Source of the DNA: Bacilli bacterium
Lineage (GTDB): Bacteria > Bacillota_I > Bacilli_A > RF39 > UBA660
Assembly (NCBI GenBank): GCA_045125935.1
Contig: JBGVNW010000068.1
Span: 133,746 to 197,745 of the forward strand
DNA length: 64,000 nt
Direction: 5' to 3'
The position numbers were made by a program, and so were the translations under genes. The notes beneath the pieces are model-generated. The model was not told the DNA's origin. It searched no databases and saw only the letters and a list, made by a program, of their open reading frames with translations. This document shows positions 4,094 through 46,203 of the stretch, one piece after another (within the stretch, counting starts at the first letter, position 1; each line of letters begins with the position of its first letter).

Positions 4094-4702
4094 ATGAAAG
4101 CAAAAGAAGTATTAAATATTCTTAACATAGGACATAGAACATTAGGAACTTATGTTAAAAAAGGATTACTTAATCCTATAAAAATTAACACCAACCATTA
4201 TGAATATGATCCAGAAGAAGTGTTCGCAATTTTGGGTAAGAAAAAAGAACGATATAATATTACATACTCTCGTGTTTCATTACCTAAACAAAAAAATGAT
4301 TTGAAAAGACAAACAAAAAGATTGTATGATTTTGCTGCTTCAAATGGTTATCTAATAAAAGAGCAGATAGAAGATGTTAAAAGTGGTATGTCTTTTGAAG
4401 ATAGAAAGGGATTTATTAAATTACTTAAAAAAGTAACTAATTATGAAGTTAAAAATGTAATCATTGAGTATAAAGATAGACTTGTTAGATTTGGATTTGA
4501 ATTAGTAAAAATATTGTTTGAAAAATATGGAACTAATATTATTATAATTTCAGATGATGAAACTAATAAAACCTACGAGCAGGAACTAACAGACGATTTA
4601 TTGTCAATTATACATTATTATTCTATGAAATCATACTCTCATAGACGAAATTTAAACAATGCAGCAAGGGCACTAAAAACAGATGATAACACTGAAAATT
4701 AA
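4094..4702 (+). CDS. tnpA: IS607-family TnpA (serine recombinase with N-terminal MerR-like HTH)
   Basis: The N-terminus EVLNILNIGHRTLGTYVKKGLLNP is HTH-like. The catalytic serine context YSRVSLPKQKNDLKRQ matches the resolvase YxRVSxxxQ...DLxRQ motif. Size is about 200 aa. Confidence 0.8.
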   Translation: MKAKEVLNILNIGHRTLGTYVKKGLLNPIKINTNHYEYDPEEVFAILGKKKERYNITYSRVSLPKQKNDLKRQTKRLYDFAASNGYLIKEQIEDVKSGMSFEDRKGFIKLLKKVTNYEVKNVIIEYKDRLVRFGFELVKILFEKYGTNIIIISDDETNKTYEQELTDDLLSIIHYYSMKSYSHRRNLNNAARALKTDDNTEN

Positions 4703-6068
4703 ATATACTACCACAGAAGATGGTTTGAATTTAATTAAAGAGTATAGAAAACAATACTCTTCGGTGCTTCATTTTGCTTACAATAGGCGATATGAAGGTG
4801 TTAGTGAAAAGAATATAGAACATCAAATAAGTTCATTGAATAATATTCCACTTGTTAAGTCATATCTTAAACGCTGTGCTGTTAAAAATGCTACACAATT
4901 AATTAAAGATGGTAATAATAAACAACTGATATTTGGTGGCAAGAAGAATTTTATTGCTCGTTGCAAAGGTAAAATATCTAAAGATGAATTTTTAAATAAG
5001 AGATTAAGTAAATTATTCATTATTGGCGAAGCAAACCAACATGGTAATAGAATTGTGGTTATAAATGATGATTTAGAATCTTTTACTTTTAAACCAACGA
5101 TAAGAGATAAAATTGTTTTATCTATTGCTGGTAGATATAAAAGATATAAGTCAATATTAAATAAATTATATCACTTACAAAAAGATAAGCAAATATCTAT
5201 AACATACGAGTTAGACAATGAATATATTTATTTAACTTACGATGAAACATTATTAAACCAATTTGTTGATTATAAACCTATTAAAAACAGGATATTTGCT
5301 ATTGACTTAAATCCAAATTATATTGGATGGTCTGTGGTTGATTGGAAGAGTAGTAGTAAGTTCGAAGTTGTTAAAAGTGGAGTTATTAGTATAAAGGATA
5401 TAAATGATATTGATTTTGGTTTAAAAGGTAAATCAAGCGAATCAAAAGAAAGAAAATATATTAATAATAAACGAATATTCGAAACATACGAAATAAGTAA
5501 GTTACTTGTTAATACTGCTAAATATTATAGATGTGAAGTGTTTGGTTTAGAAGAACTTAATATAAAAAGTAAAGACACTACCAGAGGAAAACATTATAAT
5601 AAGTTAGTTAATAATGTTTGGAATAGAAATAAACTTGTTAATAACATTAAGAAAAAATGTAATATTTATTCTATTAGAGTAATGTTAGCAAAACCAAATT
5701 ATAGTTCGTTTGTTGGTAACTTTTTATTTAGAGATTTAAACCTACCAGATATGGTTTTAGCATCAATAGAAATAGGTAGAAGATGTTATGAGTTTAAAGC
5801 ACAATATATAGATAAAACAAAAGATAAAAGAAAAAATATAATTTTACCTGATGTTAATGATTTTCATGATAGATATGTTAAGTCGTTGGAAGAATTTAAT
5901 ATACCAGTAGAAATCAAAGACTTGGATAAAATATATTATTTCTTAAAAAACGCTAAAAGCAGATATAGGGTTTCTTTAGATGATTTAAGTCATTTGGAGT
6001 TTTCAAGATGTTTTTCAAACAAAAGTAAAGTTAAGAAAATTTTAATAACATTACATAAAAATATATAA
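4683..6068 (+). CDS. tnpB: TnpB-like (OrfB) RuvC-fold protein lacking the zinc-finger insert
   Basis: RuvC-I FAIDLNPN, RuvC-II EVFGLEELNIKSK and RuvC-III-like PDMVLASIEIG are present. The CxxC...CxxC zinc ribbon expected between RuvC-II and RuvC-III is absent (only a 12-aa linker). There is an extra C-terminal extension of about 110 aa. Confidence 0.65.
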   Translation: MITLKIKYTTTEDGLNLIKEYRKQYSSVLHFAYNRRYEGVSEKNIEHQISSLNNIPLVKSYLKRCAVKNATQLIKDGNNKQLIFGGKKNFIARCKGKISKDEFLNKRLSKLFIIGEANQHGNRIVVINDDLESFTFKPTIRDKIVLSIAGRYKRYKSILNKLYHLQKDKQISITYELDNEYIYLTYDETLLNQFVDYKPIKNRIFAIDLNPNYIGWSVVDWKSSSKFEVVKSGVISIKDINDIDFGLKGKSSESKERKYINNKRIFETYEISKLLVNTAKYYRCEVFGLEELNIKSKDTTRGKHYNKLVNNVWNRNKLVNNIKKKCNIYSIRVMLAKPNYSSFVGNFLFRDLNLPDMVLASIEIGRRCYEFKAQYIDKTKDKRKNIILPDVNDFHDRYVKSLEEFNIPVEIKDLDKIYYFLKNAKSRYRVSLDDLSHLEFSRCFSNKSKVKKILITLHKNI

Positions 6069-30994: not shown

Positions 30995-31115
30995 ATTAGT
31001 AAATTTTTATATAACAAATATAACAAAAAAAAATATATTTTTTTAATTTTTGCTTGTTCAAGTATTATGTATATGAATTGCAATTCAAAACATATACAAC
31101 AAAAAAATTACAACT

Positions 31116-31730
31116 ATGGCTGAAATTATTGAAAACAAAATGGATCATCACGAAGTACCTTCTATGGCAAAAGCAAACGCAGGATTAACATTGGGTATCA
31201 TTGGTACAGCACTCGGTGCACTTAATGGATTGGGAAACTGCAATGGTGGTGGATTGCTTTCTGGATTATTTGGTAACAATTGTTCAGGTTCTTGCAGCAA
31301 AAACGCAGGTATCACAAATGAAGAACTTTACATTGAAAGAAGTCAAGCCGCTGAATATCTTGCAACTACAAAACAGTATTATGAAGGCATGATGCAAACT
31401 AACAAAAACCTCACAGATGCATTCTTTGAAAGCTACAAACGAGATGTAGATAATTCATTTATGCTCTACAAATCTCAAAGAGATGCTGATGATGTTCTTG
31501 CAAGAAGAATTGATGAAGTGGATAAGAAAGTGGATATTATGGCTGCTATCCGTCCTTATCAGGATGCTCTCATCAACTGTAAGATTGATAATGTTGCTTC
31601 TAACGCAAACTTCAATCTTGAAAGAAGAACTTGCAAGATGATAACAGGTCAATTAGTACTCCCATCAACTCCTACAGTTACAGGTTATGGTAGTTACTAT
31701 CCTTGCCAACCAACAACTCCTACCACTTAA
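31116..31730 (+). CDS. hypothetical protein with Gly-rich N-terminal segment
   Basis: GLTLGIIGTALGALNGLGNCNGGGLLSGLFGNNCSGSCS. Confidence 0.45.
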   Translation: MAEIIENKMDHHEVPSMAKANAGLTLGIIGTALGALNGLGNCNGGGLLSGLFGNNCSGSCSKNAGITNEELYIERSQAAEYLATTKQYYEGMMQTNKNLTDAFFESYKRDVDNSFMLYKSQRDADDVLARRIDEVDKKVDIMAAIRPYQDALINCKIDNVASNANFNLERRTCKMITGQLVLPSTPTVTGYGSYYPCQPTTPTT

Positions 31731-31765
31731 TTTAAACAAAGTCTATACACATCAAATGTTAAGTT

Positions 31766-32218
31766 ATGAATAATTTTTTCTTAAATCAAACGGATCCTCT
31801 ATTACATAATGGGATGTATGAAAATATACCAAATCCGATATTATATCAACAGATTCAACAAAATCAATATAAAGACAACATAGGTGAATTAGATGATGCA
31901 TTGAAATCATTAAGTCCTTCAATGGTAGAAAGATTATCACAAGACCAAAAATTTTCAGCATTGAACGCAGAATTTCAAAATATCGTCCAACAGGAATTGC
32001 TATCTGTTGTCAGAAATAAATTGAATGTTAATCCTAAAATTCAAAATAATATCAAAGAGCAATTGAGTATAATTGAAGAAACCAAACGAAATATAGAACA
32101 GGAGAAAGAAGCGTCTATAAATGAGATGAACGATTATATGAATAATTATGCACACTTAACATTTGATGAGTATAGACGCATGAAAAACGGAGAACCTTTA
32201 GATAAAAAGAAACGATAA
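31766..32218 (+). CDS. hypothetical protein
   Basis: ORF of 150 aa. Confidence 0.45.
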   Translation: MNNFFLNQTDPLLHNGMYENIPNPILYQQIQQNQYKDNIGELDDALKSLSPSMVERLSQDQKFSALNAEFQNIVQQELLSVVRNKLNVNPKIQNNIKEQLSIIEETKRNIEQEKEASINEMNDYMNNYAHLTFDEYRRMKNGEPLDKKKR

Positions 32219-32224
32219 TAAAAA

Positions 32225-32575
32225 ATGAGAAAAGAAGAATTAAAATACAGTATTACACAATATGTCAACCAATTGATTAATGATGTTTTACCCGAATCTG
32301 GGATTCTCGGTAAATTAAGTAATGTAACAGCAAAATATTGGGTAGAACAAAATCAATGGAGGTTAGATGATATTCTATCGGTTTTTACCGACAAAGACGA
32401 TTGTATAGATACAAAAAAACTGGCAGCAATGTACGAAAATGTATTGTTCGAGAACGGCGAACTGCGATTGTCTTTGAAAGAAATTGCTCCTGATAGCATA
32501 AAAGCAATGCTGCCAGATAAAACAATGGTATTTAAACGAGATGATTTATACAGACTTCTTGGGGTAATAAGATAA
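32225..32575 (+). CDS. hypothetical protein whose C-terminal 49 aa are duplicated (diverged) downstream of the TnpB gene
   Basis: The C-terminal MYENVLFENGELRLSLKEIAPDSIKAMLPDKTMVFKRDDLYRLLGVIR is re-encoded at 33997-34155 as a diverged copy. Confidence 0.5.
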   Translation: MRKEELKYSITQYVNQLINDVLPESGILGKLSNVTAKYWVEQNQWRLDDILSVFTDKDDCIDTKKLAAMYENVLFENGELRLSLKEIAPDSIKAMLPDKTMVFKRDDLYRLLGVIR

Positions 32576-32595
32576 TGTTAATAAAAAGCAAAGCA

Positions 32596-32625
32596 TCACT
32601 AATGGTGATGCTTTTTTATCTTATC
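32596..32625 (+). terminator. rho-independent terminator
   Basis: aagcatcac-taatg-gtgatgctt hairpin followed by tttttat. Confidence 0.6.
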
Positions 32626-32688
32626 CAAATATATTTTAACAAGTTTAATTTATCTAATAATTACAATATTTTTTCATAAATACTGTGT

Positions 32689-33819
32689 ATGTTAAAGGCA
32701 ATAAAAATAAGATTATATCCAAATGCTACCCAAGTAACACAAATAGATAAGTTGCTTGGATGTTATCGTGTTGTATATAATCAATGTCTTGCTCGAAAAA
32801 TAAAGTCATATGAGGAGAACAAAGTAACAGAAAATCAAACTACATTAAGTTATTTCATCCATCATGAATTATTAAAAGATGATAATTTTAGTTGGTTAAA
32901 AGAACAAAACACAAAAGTTCTTAAACAATCAATTATTGATTTGCTCGATGCTTATAAAATGTTCTTTAGAGGATTAAATAAATTTCCAAAATTCAAATCC
33001 AAAAAAGATAATAAACAATCATGTCGATTTGAAAAAGGTGCCATTTCTAAAAGAAATATTTATACAAATTATAAATTATCTCTTGCTAATATAAAAAATA
33101 TTAAATTTAAATGTAGTAAAAAATACGCAGAATACTTACAAAAGAATAAATTAAATATTAAAAGTGCCACTTTGAAAAAGTTACCTTGTGGTGAGTATTA
33201 TTTATCCATTTTAGTTGATGGTGATTTAACACATAAAGTTAAAAAATCATATCATACAGTAGGTATAGATTTGGGTATTAAATATTTTGTTATTACAAGT
33301 GACGGAGAAGTATTTGAAAATCTACATTTTAAGAAAAATAAATCAAAGAAATTAGTTAGATTACAAAAACAACTTTCTCGTAAGCAAAATGGTTCAAACA
33401 ATAGAAACAAAGCAAGAATTAAACTTGCAAAGACATATAAGCAAATAACAGATAAAAAACAATATTACTTACATCAAATATCTAACTATTTGATAGACGA
33501 AAACCAAGTTATCTGTATGGAGGATTTGAATGTAAGTGGTATGCTACGAAACCATTGTTTATCAGAAAGCATCCAAGAAATGAACTTCGGTGAATTTAGA
33601 CGAATGCTTGAATATAAAGCAAATTGGTATGGTAGAAAAATAGTATTTATAGATAGATTTTATCCATCAAGCAAAACATGTAATCATTGCGGTTATATAA
33701 ATAAAAAACTTAAATTATCTGATAGACAATGGGTTTGTCCTGATTGTGGTGAGATAATAGAAAGAGATTATAATGCCGCATTAAATATTAGAGACGAAGG
33801 AATAAGGTTAATTACTTAA
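32689..33819 (+). CDS. tnpB: TnpB (OrfB, RuvC-like RNA-guided nuclease family), apparently intact
   Basis: RuvC-I VGIDLGIKYF, RuvC-II ICMEDLNVSGM, zinc ribbon CNHCG...CPDCG, RuvC-III RDYNAALNI. Confidence 0.85.
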   Translation: MLKAIKIRLYPNATQVTQIDKLLGCYRVVYNQCLARKIKSYEENKVTENQTTLSYFIHHELLKDDNFSWLKEQNTKVLKQSIIDLLDAYKMFFRGLNKFPKFKSKKDNKQSCRFEKGAISKRNIYTNYKLSLANIKNIKFKCSKKYAEYLQKNKLNIKSATLKKLPCGEYYLSILVDGDLTHKVKKSYHTVGIDLGIKYFVITSDGEVFENLHFKKNKSKKLVRLQKQLSRKQNGSNNRNKARIKLAKTYKQITDKKQYYLHQISNYLIDENQVICMEDLNVSGMLRNHCLSESIQEMNFGEFRRMLEYKANWYGRKIVFIDRFYPSSKTCNHCGYINKKLKLSDRQWVCPDCGEIIERDYNAALNIRDEGIRLIT

Positions 33820-33829
33820 ATTAAAAATA

Positions 33830-33966
33830 TAATAGGTAGCAGTCCTACCGAATCTACGCTTGTGGACTATCCAACTATGGATGAACTTGAAATATACTAA
33901 AAAGTAGTGGTAGAGTGAAGCAAGAAGTTGATAATGAACAAAATGAAAATTTGTTCAAGATTCAAT
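33830..33966 (+). ncRNA. candidate omega-RNA (reRNA) scaffold downstream of tnpB
   Basis: Locally GC-richer, structured stretch (ggtagcagtcctacc hairpin, cgcttgtggactatccaactatgg) immediately 3' of the tnpB stop, where IS605-family omega-RNAs lie. This is an inference. Confidence 0.3.
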
Positions 33967-34155
33967 AGACTGTATCGATACAGAAAAACTTCATAAATGT
34001 ACAAAAATGTATTGTTCGAGAACGGCGAACTGCGCTTGTCTTTGAAAGAAATTGCTCCTGATAGCATTAAATCAATGTTGCCAGATAAAACAATGATATT
34101 TAAACGAGATGACTTACATAGACTTCTTGGCGTAAATAGACTTAAAACTTATTAA
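33967..34155 (+). repeat. diverged direct repeat of 32399-32575, containing a 52-aa ORF (33997-34155)
   Basis: About 90% nucleotide identity over about 175 nt. Differences are mostly synonymous or conservative in the shared reading frame. Confidence 0.7.
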
Positions 34156-34159
34156 ATGA

Positions 34160-34200
34160 AAAAAGGGTCGCTTCTAAACGACCCTTCTCTTTTATTTTAT
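34160..34200. terminator. bidirectional terminator
   Basis: aagggtcg-cttctaaa-cgaccctt hairpin followed by a T-rich run. Confidence 0.6.
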
Positions 34201-34920
34201 TTTTTGAAATAATCCAAATATGTCTAATATATTTTTGCTTGTAATCTCCTTCATTCGTTTATTAGCAACCACATCATAATTCTTTGCAAATATTACCTGC
34301 TTTCTCGCAGACATACTTGTTTCGGTAAGAGATAAACTGTAATATTTCAACAATTCTTTAACATCATACTTTGAACATGGTTTATTTAAAAAACCATTTA
34401 ACCATAAAATATAAACATATGTTCTGTCATCATTGTATGTTTTTATAATATCATCATTTACATATCTATCCCAATTTTTCAACATCTGCTTTGTATATAA
34501 TGAAATTGCACTCGCAACATTCATATTACGAAAAATTCCTATAGAACATTTATTACTTGTTATTGAATATTTTCTATCGAAAGTATTAAAATCTTTTATT
34601 CTACTTTCTATCAAATCATTTGGAAATATTATATCATCGTCGGCGGTAATTATTATATCATCATCGCCAAGATATTGTAAAATAGGAAAGACTTTTTTCA
34701 TTGTCTTTGTATTTTCGCCATCCACCCAGTTTATAATAAGTCTTTCATCAGATTCAAAATATGTAACCAAATCTTTCGGAAGGTCAATATTTACAAATTC
34801 AGATTTGCTCAAATTAAGATATACTCTATCTGGTTGAACGGTATTATCCATTATACTTTCAATAACTTTTTTAACATATCCAATCCTCTTAATCCACGAT
34901 GTTATAGATACAACTATCAT
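34192..34920 (-). CDS. putative glycosyltransferase (GT-A-like, DDD motif)
   Basis: Paralogous to the N-terminal 240 aa of the next gene; IIITADDDIIFP is a DxD-type motif. Family assignment is uncertain. Confidence 0.35.
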   Translation of the reverse strand: MIVVSITSWIKRIGYVKKVIESIMDNTVQPDRVYLNLSKSEFVNIDLPKDLVTYFESDERLIINWVDGENTKTMKKVFPILQYLGDDDIIITADDDIIFPNDLIESRIKDFNTFDRKYSITSNKCSIGIFRNMNVASAISLYTKQMLKNWDRYVNDDIIKTYNDDRTYVYILWLNGFLNKPCSKYDVKELLKYYSLSLTETSMSARKQVIFAKNYDVVANKRMKEITSKNILDIFGLFQKIK

Positions 34921-34956
34921 TGTTTGTAAATTTTTTATATTAGTTTATCAAAAAAA

Positions 34957-36621
34957 TTATTTTCTTATTTTTTTCCAAATATATGTTCCATCAGGTTTAT
35001 ATTCTTTAACAATAGTTCCATTTCTAATACCTTCTCGCAATTTTTGAATCATTGATGTTTTGTTTAAATTATCTTTGGGATTAATATTATCAGACATTTT
35101 ATTACCAAAATATATGCGATCTAAAATATCAAAGTGATTGAATTTTATTAGAGGAATATCAATAGTGCTCCATTTTGCATTTAATATACCATCTTCTAAA
35201 TCTCTTTTTGTTTTTACCTCTTTTTTATATATACATTTCTCTGGATTTTCTTCAGAACATCTCCAAGGAACAAATACTTCATCATCTTGTTGATATATAT
35301 TAAAATATGCCAAATCCATATTGAAAGGATGTTCTATGTGGCTAAAATTATTAACCATATTCAAAAAATTATTTTTATTAAATACAAACGGAACATGTGA
35401 ACAATAATTTTTTTTACAACTTTTACCAAAATGTTTTATACAATCAATAGCATTCAACACACCATCTCCCCACACATTTCCTCTTTTATATTTAAAAACA
35501 TCTTTCTTAACATACTTACTATGCTTACAGTCCTCATATGTAAATGGGTTTAAAGCATATGTATCATCCCAATGTATAATTGCCTCTTCACAATCTATGT
35601 TTTCAAAAGCATATTTTACTCTATTTGTATTATCGGCAAATCTTCCAACACTTGTATTTTTAGCAATTTCCAATCGTGGCAAAACCATTATATCAATATT
35701 TTCACAATCCAATTCTATAGGTTTATCACTAATGATATGTATAATATGCTTCTCTGTAAAAAATTTATTAATACCTGTTATACAATATTTAAGTTCTCTA
35801 TTATCGTTTTGTGGATCATCAGAAAATTCCGCAATATATGGTATAAAAATATGATGTAAATTATTTCTATTATAGAAATTAAATGAATTTTTATAATCTG
35901 TTCCAGTCACTTCATTTATTCTATTAATATGGAGATTCATTAAATCTTCTCTTCTTACATATCTATTTAATTTTCCACTAGGTTCAACTTCATTATAAAC
36001 ACACTTTTTAGCAATTTCAACAGTATCATAATATTTACATTCTTGTGGTATATATCCATTCAACCATTCTAACATTGCATAACAAGTGTCATCATTATTA
36101 CTTCGCAAAAGCATTTCATCAATATATTCTTCCCAATGATTCATCATTTTTTTAGTAAAAAGACAACCTGCACCCAAATTACCTAACATCTTATTCCTCT
36201 TATATATGTAAGATTTATTCTTATTGTTTATGCCAGATATCGGTTGATAATGTGTTTTATACTCTTCAACTCTCTTCTCTACATAATCTAACGGATACAT
36301 TATATCATCATCCACAGGAATAATAATATCGTAATCATTAAGATATTTAAGAACTGGGAATACTTTTTTCATAGTTTTTGTATTCTTACCTTCAACCCAG
36401 TTAAGTATAAGTTTCTCATTTGTATTAAAGTATTTAACCAAATCTTTTGGTATATCCAATTCTCTATTTGGAAATTCTTCTACACTTAAACTTAAATAAA
36501 AACGATCTGGTTGAAGTGTTCCTCGCATAATATTTTCAACAACAGGTTTGACATTATTAATCCTCTTAATCCAAGATGTCATACAAACAATTATTTTAGA
36601 ATCCATTTTATGTACTTTCAT
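34957..36621 (-). CDS. putative glycosyltransferase paralog with about 300-aa C-terminal extension
   Basis: SWIKRINNVKPVVENIM...DIIIPVDDDIMYP aligns with the 242-aa neighbour (34192-34920). Confidence 0.35.
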   Translation of the reverse strand: MKVHKMDSKIIVCMTSWIKRINNVKPVVENIMRGTLQPDRFYLSLSVEEFPNRELDIPKDLVKYFNTNEKLILNWVEGKNTKTMKKVFPVLKYLNDYDIIIPVDDDIMYPLDYVEKRVEEYKTHYQPISGINNKNKSYIYKRNKMLGNLGAGCLFTKKMMNHWEEYIDEMLLRSNNDDTCYAMLEWLNGYIPQECKYYDTVEIAKKCVYNEVEPSGKLNRYVRREDLMNLHINRINEVTGTDYKNSFNFYNRNNLHHIFIPYIAEFSDDPQNDNRELKYCITGINKFFTEKHIIHIISDKPIELDCENIDIMVLPRLEIAKNTSVGRFADNTNRVKYAFENIDCEEAIIHWDDTYALNPFTYEDCKHSKYVKKDVFKYKRGNVWGDGVLNAIDCIKHFGKSCKKNYCSHVPFVFNKNNFLNMVNNFSHIEHPFNMDLAYFNIYQQDDEVFVPWRCSEENPEKCIYKKEVKTKRDLEDGILNAKWSTIDIPLIKFNHFDILDRIYFGNKMSDNINPKDNLNKTSMIQKLREGIRNGTIVKEYKPDGTYIWKKIRK

Positions 36622-44994: not shown

Positions 44995-46203
44995 TTGAAA
45001 CTTGTTGAGCAACATATAATTAAAAAGAACAATATTTACTATAAAGAATTGGATAAATTATGTTTTTTATCCAAAAATCTTTATAATATTGCATTATATG
45101 AGATTAGACAACAATATTTTAAAGATAAAACATTTTTAAATTATTATTCTGTAAATAGATTGTTACATGATAGGCATGATGAAAATTATTTTGCTTTACC
45201 ATCAAACACTTCACAAGAAACACTTAAATTAGTAAGTAACAATTATAAATCATTTTTCAAATCATTATCTTCTAAAAAAGTTGATAAAGTAAAAATACCT
45301 GGTTATTTAGATAAAGAATCTGGAAGACAAGTTGTTGTTTATAATAAAATGACATTAAGTAAAAATTATTTAGATAAAGGTATTATTAAACTTCCTAAAT
45401 CGAACATAGAGTTTAAATCCAATAAATGTAATAAAATTTGTCAGGTTAGAATTATTCCAAGTAACAACCATATTGTTTTAGAAGTTATCTATGAAGAAAA
45501 TGAAGCGATATTAAAAAATGATAATGGTAAATATTTATCTATTGATTTAGGTATCAATAATTTAGCAACATGTACATCTAATGCTATAAATAGTTTTATT
45601 ATTAATGGTAGACCTGTAAAATCTATAAATCAATACTACAATAAAACCAAAGCATATTTACAATCTAAACTAAAAAATAAATACACAAGTAATAAAATTT
45701 ATAAATTAACTTTTAAAAGAAATAATAAAATAAAAGATTATTTTCATAAAACTTCTTCCTATATAGTGAATCAAGCAGTTTCTAATGACCTAAATACCAT
45801 TGTCATTGGTAAAAATGTAGGCTGGAAACAAGACATTAATATAGGAAAGAAAAATAATCAAACATTTACTCAAATACCATTTGACCTATTAATTAAGTTA
45901 ATATCATACAAAGCGAAGTTAAAAGGAATAAATGTAATACTACAAGAAGAAAGTTATACCAGCAAGGTATCATTTTTTGATAACGATTATATTCCTACTT
46001 ATGGTGTAGATGATGATAAACTTAATACTTCGGGGAAAAGAATTAAACGAGGACTATACAAAACAAAAACATCAGCATTGATAAATGCTGATGTTAATGG
46101 TAGTCTTAATATTCTAAGAAAATATCTAAAAGTATCTTCCGATCAAATAATTAATGTAGGAAGTAGAGGGTTTGTGACTAACCCATTGGTAGTTAATATC
46201 TAA
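44995..46203 (+). CDS. degenerate TnpB-like protein (zinc-finger cysteines lost, RuvC-II Glu replaced)
   Basis: RuvC-I LSIDLGINNLAT and RuvC-III INADVNGSLNI are retained. The RuvC-II position reads VIGKNVGWKQ (no E). The ESYTSK...ALINADVN segment keeps the zinc-ribbon spacing but has no Cys. Confidence 0.65.
   Translation: MKLVEQHIIKKNNIYYKELDKLCFLSKNLYNIALYEIRQQYFKDKTFLNYYSVNRLLHDRHDENYFALPSNTSQETLKLVSNNYKSFFKSLSSKKVDKVKIPGYLDKESGRQVVVYNKMTLSKNYLDKGIIKLPKSNIEFKSNKCNKICQVRIIPSNNHIVLEVIYEENEAILKNDNGKYLSIDLGINNLATCTSNAINSFIINGRPVKSINQYYNKTKAYLQSKLKNKYTSNKIYKLTFKRNNKIKDYFHKTSSYIVNQAVSNDLNTIVIGKNVGWKQDINIGKKNNQTFTQIPFDLLIKLISYKAKLKGINVILQEESYTSKVSFFDNDYIPTYGVDDDKLNTSGKRIKRGLYKTKTSALINADVNGSLNILRKYLKVSSDQIINVGSRGFVTNPLVVNI

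What the first reader, a model, noticed from the sequence alone, without database searches (positions are those of the whole stretch)
32399..34155. TnpB element flanked by a diverged direct duplication of the host gene's 3' end (carries its own replacement C-terminus)
The last about 175 nt of gene 32225-32575 (32399-32575) reappear at 33967-34155 at about 90% identity, bracketing the tnpB-only element (32626-33966). The downstream copy keeps an open frame as a 52-aa ORF, MYKNVLFENGELRLSLKEIAPDSIKSMLPDKTMIFKRDDLHRLLGVNRLKTY. This compares with ...MYENVLFENGELRLSLKEIAPDSIKAMLPDKTMVFKRDDLYRLLGVIR in the intact gene. Most nucleotide differences are synonymous or conservative, so both copies evolved under coding constraint in different lineages. 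Each copy has its own terminator (32596-32625 and 34160-34200). IS200/IS605 elements do not make target duplications, so this looks like acquisition of a tnpB-containing segment by homologous recombination with a related phage. The result is a 'gene-end plus TnpB' cassette. Because the sequence flanking the element's right end is what TnpB omega-RNAs use as guide, the guide here would be homologous to the left-flank target, a configuration compatible with TnpB-mediated homing or retention.
Basis: seen in the sequence. Interest (0 to 1): 0.7.

Follow-up and report, generated by a model that had tools for sequence, protein, structure and literature searches.

The report
TnpB homing cassette carrying replacement gene end
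A phage gene has been invaded by an RNA-guided nuclease (TnpB) cassette that brings its own mismatched copy of the gene's last 57 codons and pushes the original end downstream, where it supplies the guide sequence that matches uninvaded relatives. This layout was known for protein homing endonucleases in fungal mitochondria but I found no description of it for TnpB.

Summary
Window 32405-32569 recurs at 33974-34137 (12 differences in 141 in-frame nt, dN/dS 0.19), around an intact tnpB (32689-33819).

What related contigs show:
- At least three have the same filled arrangement.
- The right copy is the displaced native end: 98.6% identical to the empty allele in L002, same terminator, now frameshifted.
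- The left copy and the 32590 terminator travel with the cassette.

The omegaRNA scaffold has covariation support in 40 relatives and ends at 33973. The guide (33974-33989, ATCGATACAGAAAAAC) matches three empty alleles 16/16, each preceded by GTGT. The genome's own left copy has TTGT and two guide mismatches.

Against the closest empty relative, the window has no differences for 473 nt, then 14 in 169 nt, starting at that motif.

Three other TnpB loci in other phages show the same architecture: two protein-gene ends and a tRNA array.

Best reading: an RNA-guided homing or allele-exclusion cassette that keeps its target gene whole by carrying an immune replacement end. Cleavage and the TAM are untested. 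It is a new variant of known kinds: TnpB homing, and mitochondrial endonuclease elements that carry foreign C-termini.

The parts
32225..32575 (+). Target gene X: 116 aa, function unknown, intact. It is a hybrid of a native 5' part and a cassette-borne 3' end.
   Evidence: ORF. 82 homologues, mostly 120 aa. Confident AlphaFold model (pLDDT 88.5) with no known fold match; only weak similarity to uncharacterised crAss-like phage proteins. No Pfam or PHROG hit.
32401..32404 (+). TAM-position motif in the left copy: TTGT here, GTGT in 10 of 11 empty N1 alleles and GTGC in L088.
   Evidence: 32401 T>G is the first difference from L001 after 473 identical nt. The same T is present in the filled locus L097.
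32405..32420 (+). Guide-homologous site in the left copy: ATAGATACAAAAAAAC, with two mismatches to the guide at positions 3 and 10. Presumed immune.
   Evidence: the only other match in the window within 3 mismatches.
32405..32575 (+). Left copy: the replacement 3' end (57 codons) linked to the cassette. Its last codons (GVIR*) derive from an N2-type ..KQY* end.
   Evidence: Alignments; dN/dS; breakpoint.
32590..32614 (+). Cassette-specific intrinsic terminator (11-bp stem). Shared by the filled loci L004 and L097 and absent from all empty sites.
32689..33819 (+). tnpB: 376 aa, ISDra2-like RNA-guided nuclease, with RuvC residues D194/E278/D360 and a zinc finger C331/C334/C350/C353.
   Evidence: Pfam. 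PDB ISDra2 TnpB at E=3e-63 over the full length. 85% aa identity and dN/dS 0.15 against L004.
33835..33973 (+). Conserved structured core of the omegaRNA scaffold (right end), ending ..CAATAGACTGT.
   Evidence: 40-sequence alignment: 19 pairs, 10 with compensatory changes, 99.3% paired, 0/500 shuffles reach the observed values. The 3' end motif is conserved in about 60 loci.
33974..33989 (+). Predicted 16-nt guide, ATCGATACAGAAAAAC.
   Evidence: First 16 nt after the scaffold end. 16/16 match to the empty alleles L001, L087 and L090. The ~16-nt flank-derived guide is established for ISDra2 (PMC8612924).
33974..34155 (+). Right copy: the displaced native 3' end of gene X (pseudogene remnant), damaged at 33990-33996, with a residual 52-aa ORF at 33997-34155.
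   Evidence: 98.6% identical to empty allele L002 over 141 nt. It ends ..NRLKTY like the 120-aa alleles. Alignments.
34163..34186 (+). Native terminator of gene X, the one that follows the gene in empty sites.

Best explanation
This is a TnpB-omegaRNA cassette sitting inside a conserved phage gene without inactivating it.

Shown:
- The cassette consists of a replacement copy of the gene's last 57 codons, its own terminator, tnpB and the omegaRNA scaffold.
- The native 3' end has been pushed downstream, directly against the scaffold.
- The guide read from that junction is therefore the native gene sequence.
- Uninvaded relatives carry exactly that sequence after a GTGT motif.

Inferred:
- During co-infection, TnpB-omegaRNA cuts the uninvaded allele.
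- The break is repaired by homologous recombination from the cassette-bearing genome. The gene's 5' part serves as the left arm, and the displaced native end plus downstream DNA as the right arm. This copies the cassette in (homing) or destroys the competitor.
- The resident left copy escapes because it differs at the TAM position and at guide positions 3 and 10.
- After spread, the displaced end decays.

How the first junction arose is unknown. Recombination between an intragenic and an intergenic insertion, or a break-repair join at the TAM-like KGT motif, would both give it.
For: - Empty sites: 16 contigs with one gene copy plus the native terminator.
- The same filled layout recurs in independent assemblies: L004 (165-kb contig), L097, L117 and L112-L116.
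- The right copy is 98.6% identical to empty allele L002. The left-copy terminator is cassette-specific.
- The scaffold end is fixed by about 60 relatives and by covariation.
- The guide matches L001, L087 and L090 16/16, each preceded by GTGT. The window's left copy has TTGT and 2 mismatches. The L004 left copy has 6 mismatches.
- The immune haplotype (TTGT plus ATAGATACAAAAAAAC) is identical in the window and L097, although their backgrounds are only about 87% alike.
- Window vs L001: 0 differences in 31928-32400, then 14 in 32401-32569. Within gene X that is 0/176 against 14/169, Fisher p=3e-5.
- tnpB is under purifying selection (dN/dS 0.15) with catalytic residues intact.
- Left-end flanks of ten independent relatives end GGGT (nine) or AGGT (one), while their right ends finish ACGGT. 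The window subfamily's right end finishes ACTGT and its target has GTGT.
- The same architecture, with empty counterparts, occurs at unrelated genes: L037/39/45 against the empty L105, and L019/21/22/81 against about 41 empty alleles. It also occurs in a tRNA array, L011/L036.
Against: - No cleavage, RNA or homing data exist. All of this is sequence inference from metagenome assemblies.
- The TAM of this particular TnpB is not established. No left end is recognisable in the window's subfamily.
- In the L021 group the empty alleles carry GGAT rather than GGGT.
- Empty alleles with a perfect guide match persist.
- A lineage that has lost the guide through a 40-nt deletion starting at the scaffold end occurs in at least 6 contigs, so the nuclease activity may not be needed for persistence.
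- Most TnpB relatives (about 50 of 61 loci tested) have no flanking duplication.
- Three of 14 left-copy differences lie in the TAM+guide stretch, which is not itself a significant enrichment.
Confidence: 0.6

Rival explanations
1. Passive recombination scar. The cassette and the foreign gene end were brought in by ordinary homologous or illegitimate recombination between mosaic phages. TnpB is a passenger, or serves only classic transposon maintenance, and does not cut the uninvaded allele. The guide match is a trivial by-product of the junction.
For: The guide-target match follows automatically from the layout. The TAM is unverified. Naive alleles that match the guide perfectly persist. The guide-deleted lineage L112-L116 is widespread. 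These phage genomes are strongly mosaic.
Against: The junction lies exactly at the scaffold end, next to a KGT motif, in four independent loci. The breakpoint sits exactly at the target. The same TAM and seed changes occur in two divergent filled genomes. TnpB and the omegaRNA are under clear constraint.
Confidence: 0.22
2. Composite transposon. The unit [gene 3' end + terminator + tnpB + right end] transposes as one piece, mobilised by a TnpA. Candidates are the IS607-type serine recombinase at 4094-4702 or a host Y1 enzyme. It inserts 3' of the TGT/GGT motif, so both gene-end copies begin at the same position.
For: The left and right copies start at the same homologous nucleotide after TGT. 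An IS607-type TnpA is encoded in the window. GG(T) is found at both junctions of relatives, as in IS607 (review PMC13565253).
Against: In L037 the true left end and its GGGGT flank lie about 90 nt downstream of the left copy's stop, so the gene end is outside the transposon. The window and L004 carry left copies of different allele classes on the same cassette, which needs homologous recombination. The change at 32401 lies outside the putative inserted unit. No left-end-like sequence is present at 32405.
Confidence: 0.1
3. A pre-existing tandem duplication of the gene end into which a TnpB element later inserted, or a right copy that is a functional small gene.
For: A 52-aa ORF remains open. 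In L004 and L117 a 73-aa ORF runs from the scaffold into the copy.
Against: None of the 16 empty-site contigs has a duplication. The right copy is frameshifted in the window and truncated by 40 nt in L112-L116, and the ORF start differs between loci.
Confidence: 0.03

Closest known systems
Mobile endonuclease ORFs (mORFs) with a foreign C-terminus in fungal mitochondrial genes: Allomyces macrogynus atp6; Glomus atp6, atp9, cox2 and nad3 (PMC3630166)
   Same: The architecture is the same: gene core, inserted foreign C-terminal part, endonuclease gene, then the displaced native C*-terminal part downstream. The native part resembles uninvaded relatives and the inserted part is diverged.
   Different: In those elements the endonuclease is a LAGLIDADG or GIY-YIG protein that recognises DNA itself. 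Here it is TnpB, whose specificity is read from the junction with the displaced end. That makes the displaced copy a functional part (the guide template) and makes immunity a matter of a few mismatches. The host is a phage, not an organelle.
TnpB/omegaRNA-driven transposon homing in IS200/IS605 (ISDra2: PMC8612924; Geobacillus IS605: PMC10055086)
   Same: An ISDra2-like TnpB, an omegaRNA scaffold in the right end, a guide taken from the right flank, a target made of a left-flank motif plus the right flank, and homology-directed copying after the cut.
   Different: There is no adjacent TnpA and no recognisable left end. The target is the homologous allele of a co-infecting genome rather than the excised donor joint on a sister chromosome; the review PMC13565253 lists this 'non-restorative homing' into co-infecting phages as theoretically possible. 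The site is inside a gene, which is rescued by a carried gene end.
IStrons (group I intron + IS605/IS607 TnpB; PMC4227781, PMC10690162)
   Same: A TnpB element that can sit inside genes without destroying them.
   Different: IStrons restore the gene by RNA splicing. Here no ribozyme is detected (no Rfam hit), and the gene is kept whole at the DNA level by a replacement end with its own stop codon and terminator.
Intronless homing and marker exclusion by free-standing endonucleases of T-even phages (SegF, SegB, MobE; reviewed in PMC13565253)
   Same: Spread between co-infecting phages by cleavage of the rival allele and co-conversion of flanking markers. Self is distinguished from non-self by a few substitutions near the endonuclease gene.
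   Different: Those are protein-guided and intergenic, without duplication of a gene end.
Integrative elements that insert into the 3' ends of tRNA or protein genes and carry a replacement end (own knowledge)
   Same: A direct duplication of a gene's 3' end flanks the inserted DNA, and the gene is kept intact. The tRNA-array case L011/L036 resembles this superficially.
   Different: Those use an integrase and an identical core sequence. Here there is no integrase next to the element, the copies are 8-20% diverged, and the right junction is the omegaRNA end.

Membership tests
TnpB (OMEGA) RNA-guided nuclease, ISDra2-like | TnpB protein with HTH/WED-REC, a RuvC D-E-D triad and a zinc-finger TNB domain | tested here: met
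   Pfam PF12323, PF01385 and PF07282. Full-length match to ISDra2 TnpB structures 8EXA/8H1J at E=3e-63. D194, E278, D360 and CxxC..CxxC are present.
TnpB (OMEGA) RNA-guided nuclease, ISDra2-like | Structured omegaRNA scaffold encoded at the 3' end of tnpB / the right end | tested here: met
   Conserved about 140 nt downstream of the stop codon in 40 relatives. 19 pairs, 10 with compensatory changes, 0/500 shuffles reach the observed values, and slid controls are low. No Rfam family matched.
TnpB (OMEGA) RNA-guided nuclease, ISDra2-like | A guide of about 16 nt taken from the DNA flanking the right end, complementary to the unoccupied site | tested here: met
   At the sequence level only: 33974-33989 matches the empty alleles L001, L087 and L090 16/16. 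The RNA 3' end itself was not observed.
TnpB (OMEGA) RNA-guided nuclease, ISDra2-like | A TAM 5' of the target, identical to the motif flanking the left end | tested here: inconclusive
   Left-end flanks of ten relatives end GGGT or AGGT. The window subfamily has no recognisable left end. Its empty target has GTGT. The L021-group empty alleles have GGAT.
IS200/IS605 insertion sequence (autonomous or TnpA-mobilisable) | An adjacent Y1 HUH TnpA and/or subterminal left-end and right-end hairpins bounding the element | tested here: not met
   No tnpA lies between 32576 and 33973. There is no conserved sequence upstream of the tnpB ATG among the 70-75% relatives. The only hairpin upstream is the terminator at 32590-32614.
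IS607 family | A serine-recombinase TnpA next to tnpB, element ends in GG, insertion at GG | tested here: inconclusive
   A MerR+Resolvase TnpA exists in the window but 28 kb away, at 4094-4702. Relatives end ..ACGGT with GGGT at the left flank. The window element ends ..ACTGT.
IStron | A group I intron ribozyme enclosing the IS, so that the host gene is restored by splicing | tested here: not met
   No Rfam match in the whole window at gathering thresholds. The left gene copy has its own stop codon and terminator.
mORF-type homing element with carried C-terminus (fungal mitochondria) | Gene core + foreign C-terminal part + endonuclease gene + displaced native C-terminal part, with the native part matching uninvaded relatives | tested here: met
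   against the description in PMC3630166. The endonuclease class differs (TnpB rather than LAGLIDADG/GIY-YIG), so this is an analogy of architecture, not homology.
Homing element (functional definition) | Nuclease-dependent copying into the empty allele | not testable with these tools
   Only indirect signs: the breakpoint at the target, and the presence and absence of the cassette among close relatives.

The most novel reading that the evidence does not exclude
Phage TnpB elements have a general, undescribed way of invading essential coding and tRNA genes. The element fuses its omegaRNA end to an internal point of the gene, next to a TAM-like KGT motif, so that the displaced gene end becomes the guide template. 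It also carries a diverged, guide-mismatched replacement end. This gives an intron-free, RNA-programmed homing and allele-exclusion cassette whose specificity is rewritten simply by forming a new junction. The window, L037, L021 and the tRNA-array loci would be four independent instances.
Probability: 0.45. Interest if true: 0.85.

Novelty: new variant of a known kind. Interest (0 to 1): 0.72.

Why it matters
TnpB is the ancestor of Cas12, and its natural role has been shown mainly as transposon retention on sister chromosomes. This locus, with its empty-site partners and parallel cases, points to three things:

- TnpB may also act between co-infecting phage genomes.
- It can occupy the interior of a conserved gene without an intron.
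- Guide and immunity are set by a few nucleotides in two copies of the same gene end.

That gives a directly testable natural system for RNA-guided homing or competitor exclusion in phages. It also offers a route by which guides could be retargeted without a transposase, and an explanation for short duplicated gene or tRNA ends next to tnpB in viral genomes. For annotation, such downstream mini-ORFs are displaced gene ends, not genes.

Tried and rejected
- Nucleotide search of 31000-35500 and protein search of gene X against INPHARED phages: no match.
- Search of IMG/VR with gene X peptides: nothing.
- Rfam on the whole window: no family, so no group I intron or IStron and no curated omegaRNA model. 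No tRNA genes in the window.
- Single-sequence fold of the right end: z = -1.4, not informative by itself. The alignment-based test was used instead.
- Search for a conserved left end in the window's TnpB subfamily: none. A left end (TATTAAC..) was found only in the subfamily about 53% identical.
- Attempts to find empty sites for an ACTGT-type relative (L005) and for the tRNA-array case: only filled copies were returned.
- The genome-contig scan returned only MAG contigs that look like phage. It gave no bacterial IS copy with TnpA from which to read the TAM.
- Breakpoint test in the L021 group: the nearest empty relative is only about 94% identical, so only a rise in divergence at the target (from about 4% to about 27%) could be seen, not a sharp edge.
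- Function of gene X: no Pfam or PHROG hit and no PDB fold match.
- I first considered that the TAM might be TTGAT-like, as in ISDra2. There is no such motif next to the target.
Full report
**1. The observation**

The region holds a 116-aa ORF (32225-32575), an intact 376-aa tnpB (32689-33819) and a 52-aa ORF (33997-34155).
- The longest direct repeat in 31500-35000 is 32428-32572 vs 33996-34140, at 92% over 145 nt. The alignment extends it to 32402/33971.
- Over the 141 in-frame nt there are 12 differences, at codon positions 5/1/6, with dN/dS 0.19.
- Terminator-like hairpins lie at 32590-32614 and 34163-34186 (7 sites against 0.4 expected).
- TnpB has all three Pfam domains. It matches ISDra2 TnpB structures over its full length (E=3e-63), with D194/E278/D360 and both CxxC pairs present.

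**2. Which copy is native**

The database holds 82 homologues of the gene. Most are 120 aa and end ..GVNRIKNY, like the right copy. A few are 116-117 aa, like the left copy. Three short proteins are right-copy remnants from other contigs.

*Empty sites.*
- Eight more such alleles came from JGI metagenomes (L084-L091).
- Five contigs carry a second allele class, N2: 117 aa..GIKQY. Four of these (L092-L095) were checked and have the native terminator.
- None of the 15 loci checked has the cassette terminator or a scaffold remnant.

*Filled sites.* These recur in independent assemblies:
- L004, a 165-kb contig with a 117-aa gene, tnpB and a 73-aa remnant;
- L097;
- L117 and L112-L116.

*Assignment of the copies.*
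- The window's right copy is 98.6% identical to the empty allele of L002 and keeps the native terminator.
- The hairpin at 32590 and everything up to the scaffold is shared only by filled loci.
- So the right copy is the displaced native end, and the left copy is linked to the cassette.
- The right copy is decaying: it has a 1-nt deletion and substitutions at 33990-33996, which are not present in L004 or L117.

**3. The right end and the guide**

TnpB relatives in IMG/VR (79 loci, 38-75% identity, often several per contig) share a stretch of about 140 nt after the stop codon. It ends ..AT[AG]TAC[GT]GT, and beyond that point the sequences are unrelated.
- A 40-sequence alignment gives 19 base pairs. 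Ten have compensatory changes and 99.3% of cells are paired. No shuffle out of 500 reaches the observed values, and the slid controls are low.
- In the window the scaffold ends at 33973 (..CAATAGACTGT).
- By the ISDra2 precedent, in which about 16 nt of flank form the guide (PMC8612924), the guide is 33974-33989, ATCGATACAGAAAAAC.
- The 40-nt deletion in L112-L116 starts exactly at this boundary, which independently marks it.

**4. Target and immunity**

Among the 11 empty N1-class alleles:

| Alleles | Match to the guide |
|---|---|
| L001, L087, L090 | 16/16, preceded by GAGTGT |
| L088 | 16/16, but preceded by GTGC |
| L002, L003, L084, L086, L089 | one mismatch, at position 3 |
| L085, L091 | two mismatches |

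N2 alleles have six mismatches.

The window's own left copy reads GATTGT-ATAGATACAAAAAAAC. That is T instead of G at position -4, plus mismatches at guide positions 3 and 10. It is the only other site in the window within three mismatches of the guide.
- L097, whose background is only about 87% identical to the window, carries exactly the same haplotype within a 108-nt stretch of zero differences.
- L004's left copy is of the N2 class (96% identical to L092) but is joined to the cassette terminator.

**5. Breakpoint**

Against L001 the window has no difference from 31928 to 32400 (473 nt). It then has 14 substitutions in 32401-32569, the first at the -4 position.
- Within gene X this is 0/176 against 14/169, p=3e-5.
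- Against the whole upstream segment it is 13/1204 against 14/169, p=5e-7.

Homing predicts this pattern: recombinants that keep a cleavable site would be cut again. It also fits any import of the gene end together with the cassette. It does not fit vertical divergence.

**6. TAM**

The window's subfamily has no recognisable left end. In the subfamily about 53% identical, a left end (TATTAAC[AT]GTT..) is present. Ten independent insertions have left flanks ending GGGT (nine) or AGGT (one).
- For one of them, two empty sites (L099, L101) read AATAA[AT]GGT|TAAATG...
- Their right ends finish ACGGT.
- The window's subfamily finishes ACTGT, and its empty target has GTGT.
- So the target motif looks like G + KGT, the scaffold end like C + KGT, and the window's left copy has T + TGT.

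This is suggestive, not proof. In the L021 group the empty alleles have GGAT.

**7. The pattern is not unique to this locus**

Comparing each relative's right flank with its upstream 1.5 kb showed the following.
- **L037/L039/L045.** The last ~66 codons of a 284-aa gene are repeated directly after the scaffold end at about 80% identity. The guide region differs at one position (position 3), and the motif is GGC in the left copy against GGT in the right. A related contig (L105) has the empty site with GGGT, the native terminator and the same downstream gene. Here the true left end and its GGGGT flank lie about 90 nt after the left copy's stop. The duplication is therefore not part of the transposon proper and was not made by a simple insertion.
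- **L019/L021/L022/L081.** The last 15-16 codons are duplicated, and about 41 empty alleles exist in IMG/VR. Divergence rises from about 4% to about 27% at the target.
- **L011/L036 and L128-L132.** These sit in a phage tRNA array: tRNA-Phe and tRNA-Glu/Lys lie left of tnpB, and a 3' tRNA fragment plus tRNA-Glu lies right of it.
- **L034 and L032.** These show short versions.

About 50 of the 61 loci tested show no duplication.

**8. Selection on the cassette**

- tnpB in the window against L004: 85% aa identity, equal length, dN/dS 0.15, dS 0.66.
- The scaffold is about 88% identical between the two.
- The nuclease and its RNA are maintained, not decaying.

**9. Mechanism**

*Shown:* the architecture, which copy is native, the empty sites, the guide-target identity, the mismatched resident copy, the breakpoint, and recurrence elsewhere.

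*Inferred:* TnpB-omegaRNA cuts sensitive alleles of co-infecting relatives. Repair from the cassette-bearing genome copies in the replacement end, terminator, tnpB and scaffold. The recipient's own 3' end remains as the new guide template. Failing repair, the competitor is lost.

*Origin (speculative):*
- recombination within the element between a genome with an intragenic insertion and one with an intergenic insertion downstream of an N2-type allele; or
- a break-repair join at KGT microhomology.

Either would give the structure. The N2-like last codons of all left copies fit an origin in an N2 genome.

**10. Comparison with what is known**

- The layout is that of mitochondrial mORF elements that carry a foreign C-terminus and leave the native C*-terminus downstream (PMC3630166), but with an RNA-guided nuclease.
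- It shares its parts with IS605 TnpB homing (PMC8612924; PMC10055086) but lacks TnpA and a left end, and it targets a homologous allele.
- The 2026 review PMC13565253 lists homing into co-infecting phages only as a theoretical possibility.
- It solves the same problem as IStrons, but without a ribozyme.
- Seven full-text searches found no description of TnpB cassettes with replacement gene ends.

**11. Context and limits**

The window is about 29% G+C and comes from an uncharacterised large phage-like genome.
- Related contigs reach 360 kb.
- The nearest TnpB hits are in rumen and gut Bacteroidales MAG contigs.
- The window also encodes an IS607-type TnpA (4094-4702) and a second, distant TnpB (44995-46203).
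- Gene X folds confidently but has no known relative.

All comparisons use metagenome assemblies. The repeat could in principle mislead an assembler, but the same arrangement appears in several independent assemblies.

**Verdict**

This is a new variant of known kinds. Its function as a homing or exclusion cassette is likely (about 0.6) but unproven.

Noticed in passing
window 4094-4702 and 4683-6068: An IS607-type TnpA (MerR HTH + serine-recombinase Resolvase domain, 202 aa), followed by an overlapping 461-aa ORF with no Pfam hit. It is a possible source of transposase in trans for the tnpB-only elements.
   Followed up: partly
window 44995-46203; L004 9182-10222: A second, distant TnpB (402 aa, 22% identical to the first). 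It aligned without the zinc-finger cysteines of the first TnpB. In L004 the corresponding place has a Resolvase gene directly upstream of a 418-aa ORF, which is probably a complete IS607-like element. No flanking duplication was seen in the window.
   Followed up: partly
window 34192-34920 (-) and 34957-36621 (-): The 242-aa gene is a paralogue of the N-terminal part of the neighbouring 554-aa gene (weak Stealth_CR2-like). It is absent from the empty-site contigs L001-L003, and in L004 the region is one 786-aa gene. This is a second structural polymorphism right next to the cassette.
   Followed up: no
window 33990-33996: A cluster of changes in the displaced copy (CTGGCAGCAATG becomes CTTCATAAATG: a 1-nt deletion plus three substitutions) lies 17-23 nt after the scaffold end. 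That is about where TnpB would cut a target. It could be a repair scar or simple decay.
   Followed up: no
L112-L116 (e.g. L112 about 150-200): A lineage of the same cassette, seen in at least 6 contigs from different samples, has a 40-nt deletion that begins exactly at the scaffold/guide boundary. This joins ..GACTGT to TGTTCGAGAACGG. The guide is either lost or retargeted to the most conserved part of the gene.
   Followed up: partly
L011 2690-4412; L036 2724-4422; L128-L132: TnpB sits inside a phage tRNA array. tRNA-Phe and tRNA-Glu (or tRNA-Lys) lie upstream, and a 3' tRNA fragment (GTGACGGTTCGATTCC..) plus another tRNA-Glu lies immediately after the omegaRNA end. The predicted guide covers a tRNA T-arm. 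No empty site was found.
   Followed up: partly
IMG/VR contigs 3300035498_000654 (L007, L008, L010, L015) and 3300045988_152231 (L011, L018, L023, L031): Single viral contigs carry four related tnpB copies each. This family has proliferated within phage genomes.
   Followed up: no
window 31741-31764 and 32154-32177: A 24-nt inverted repeat, 96% complementary, brackets most of the 150-aa gene just upstream of gene X. The same pair is seen in L001-L003.
   Followed up: no
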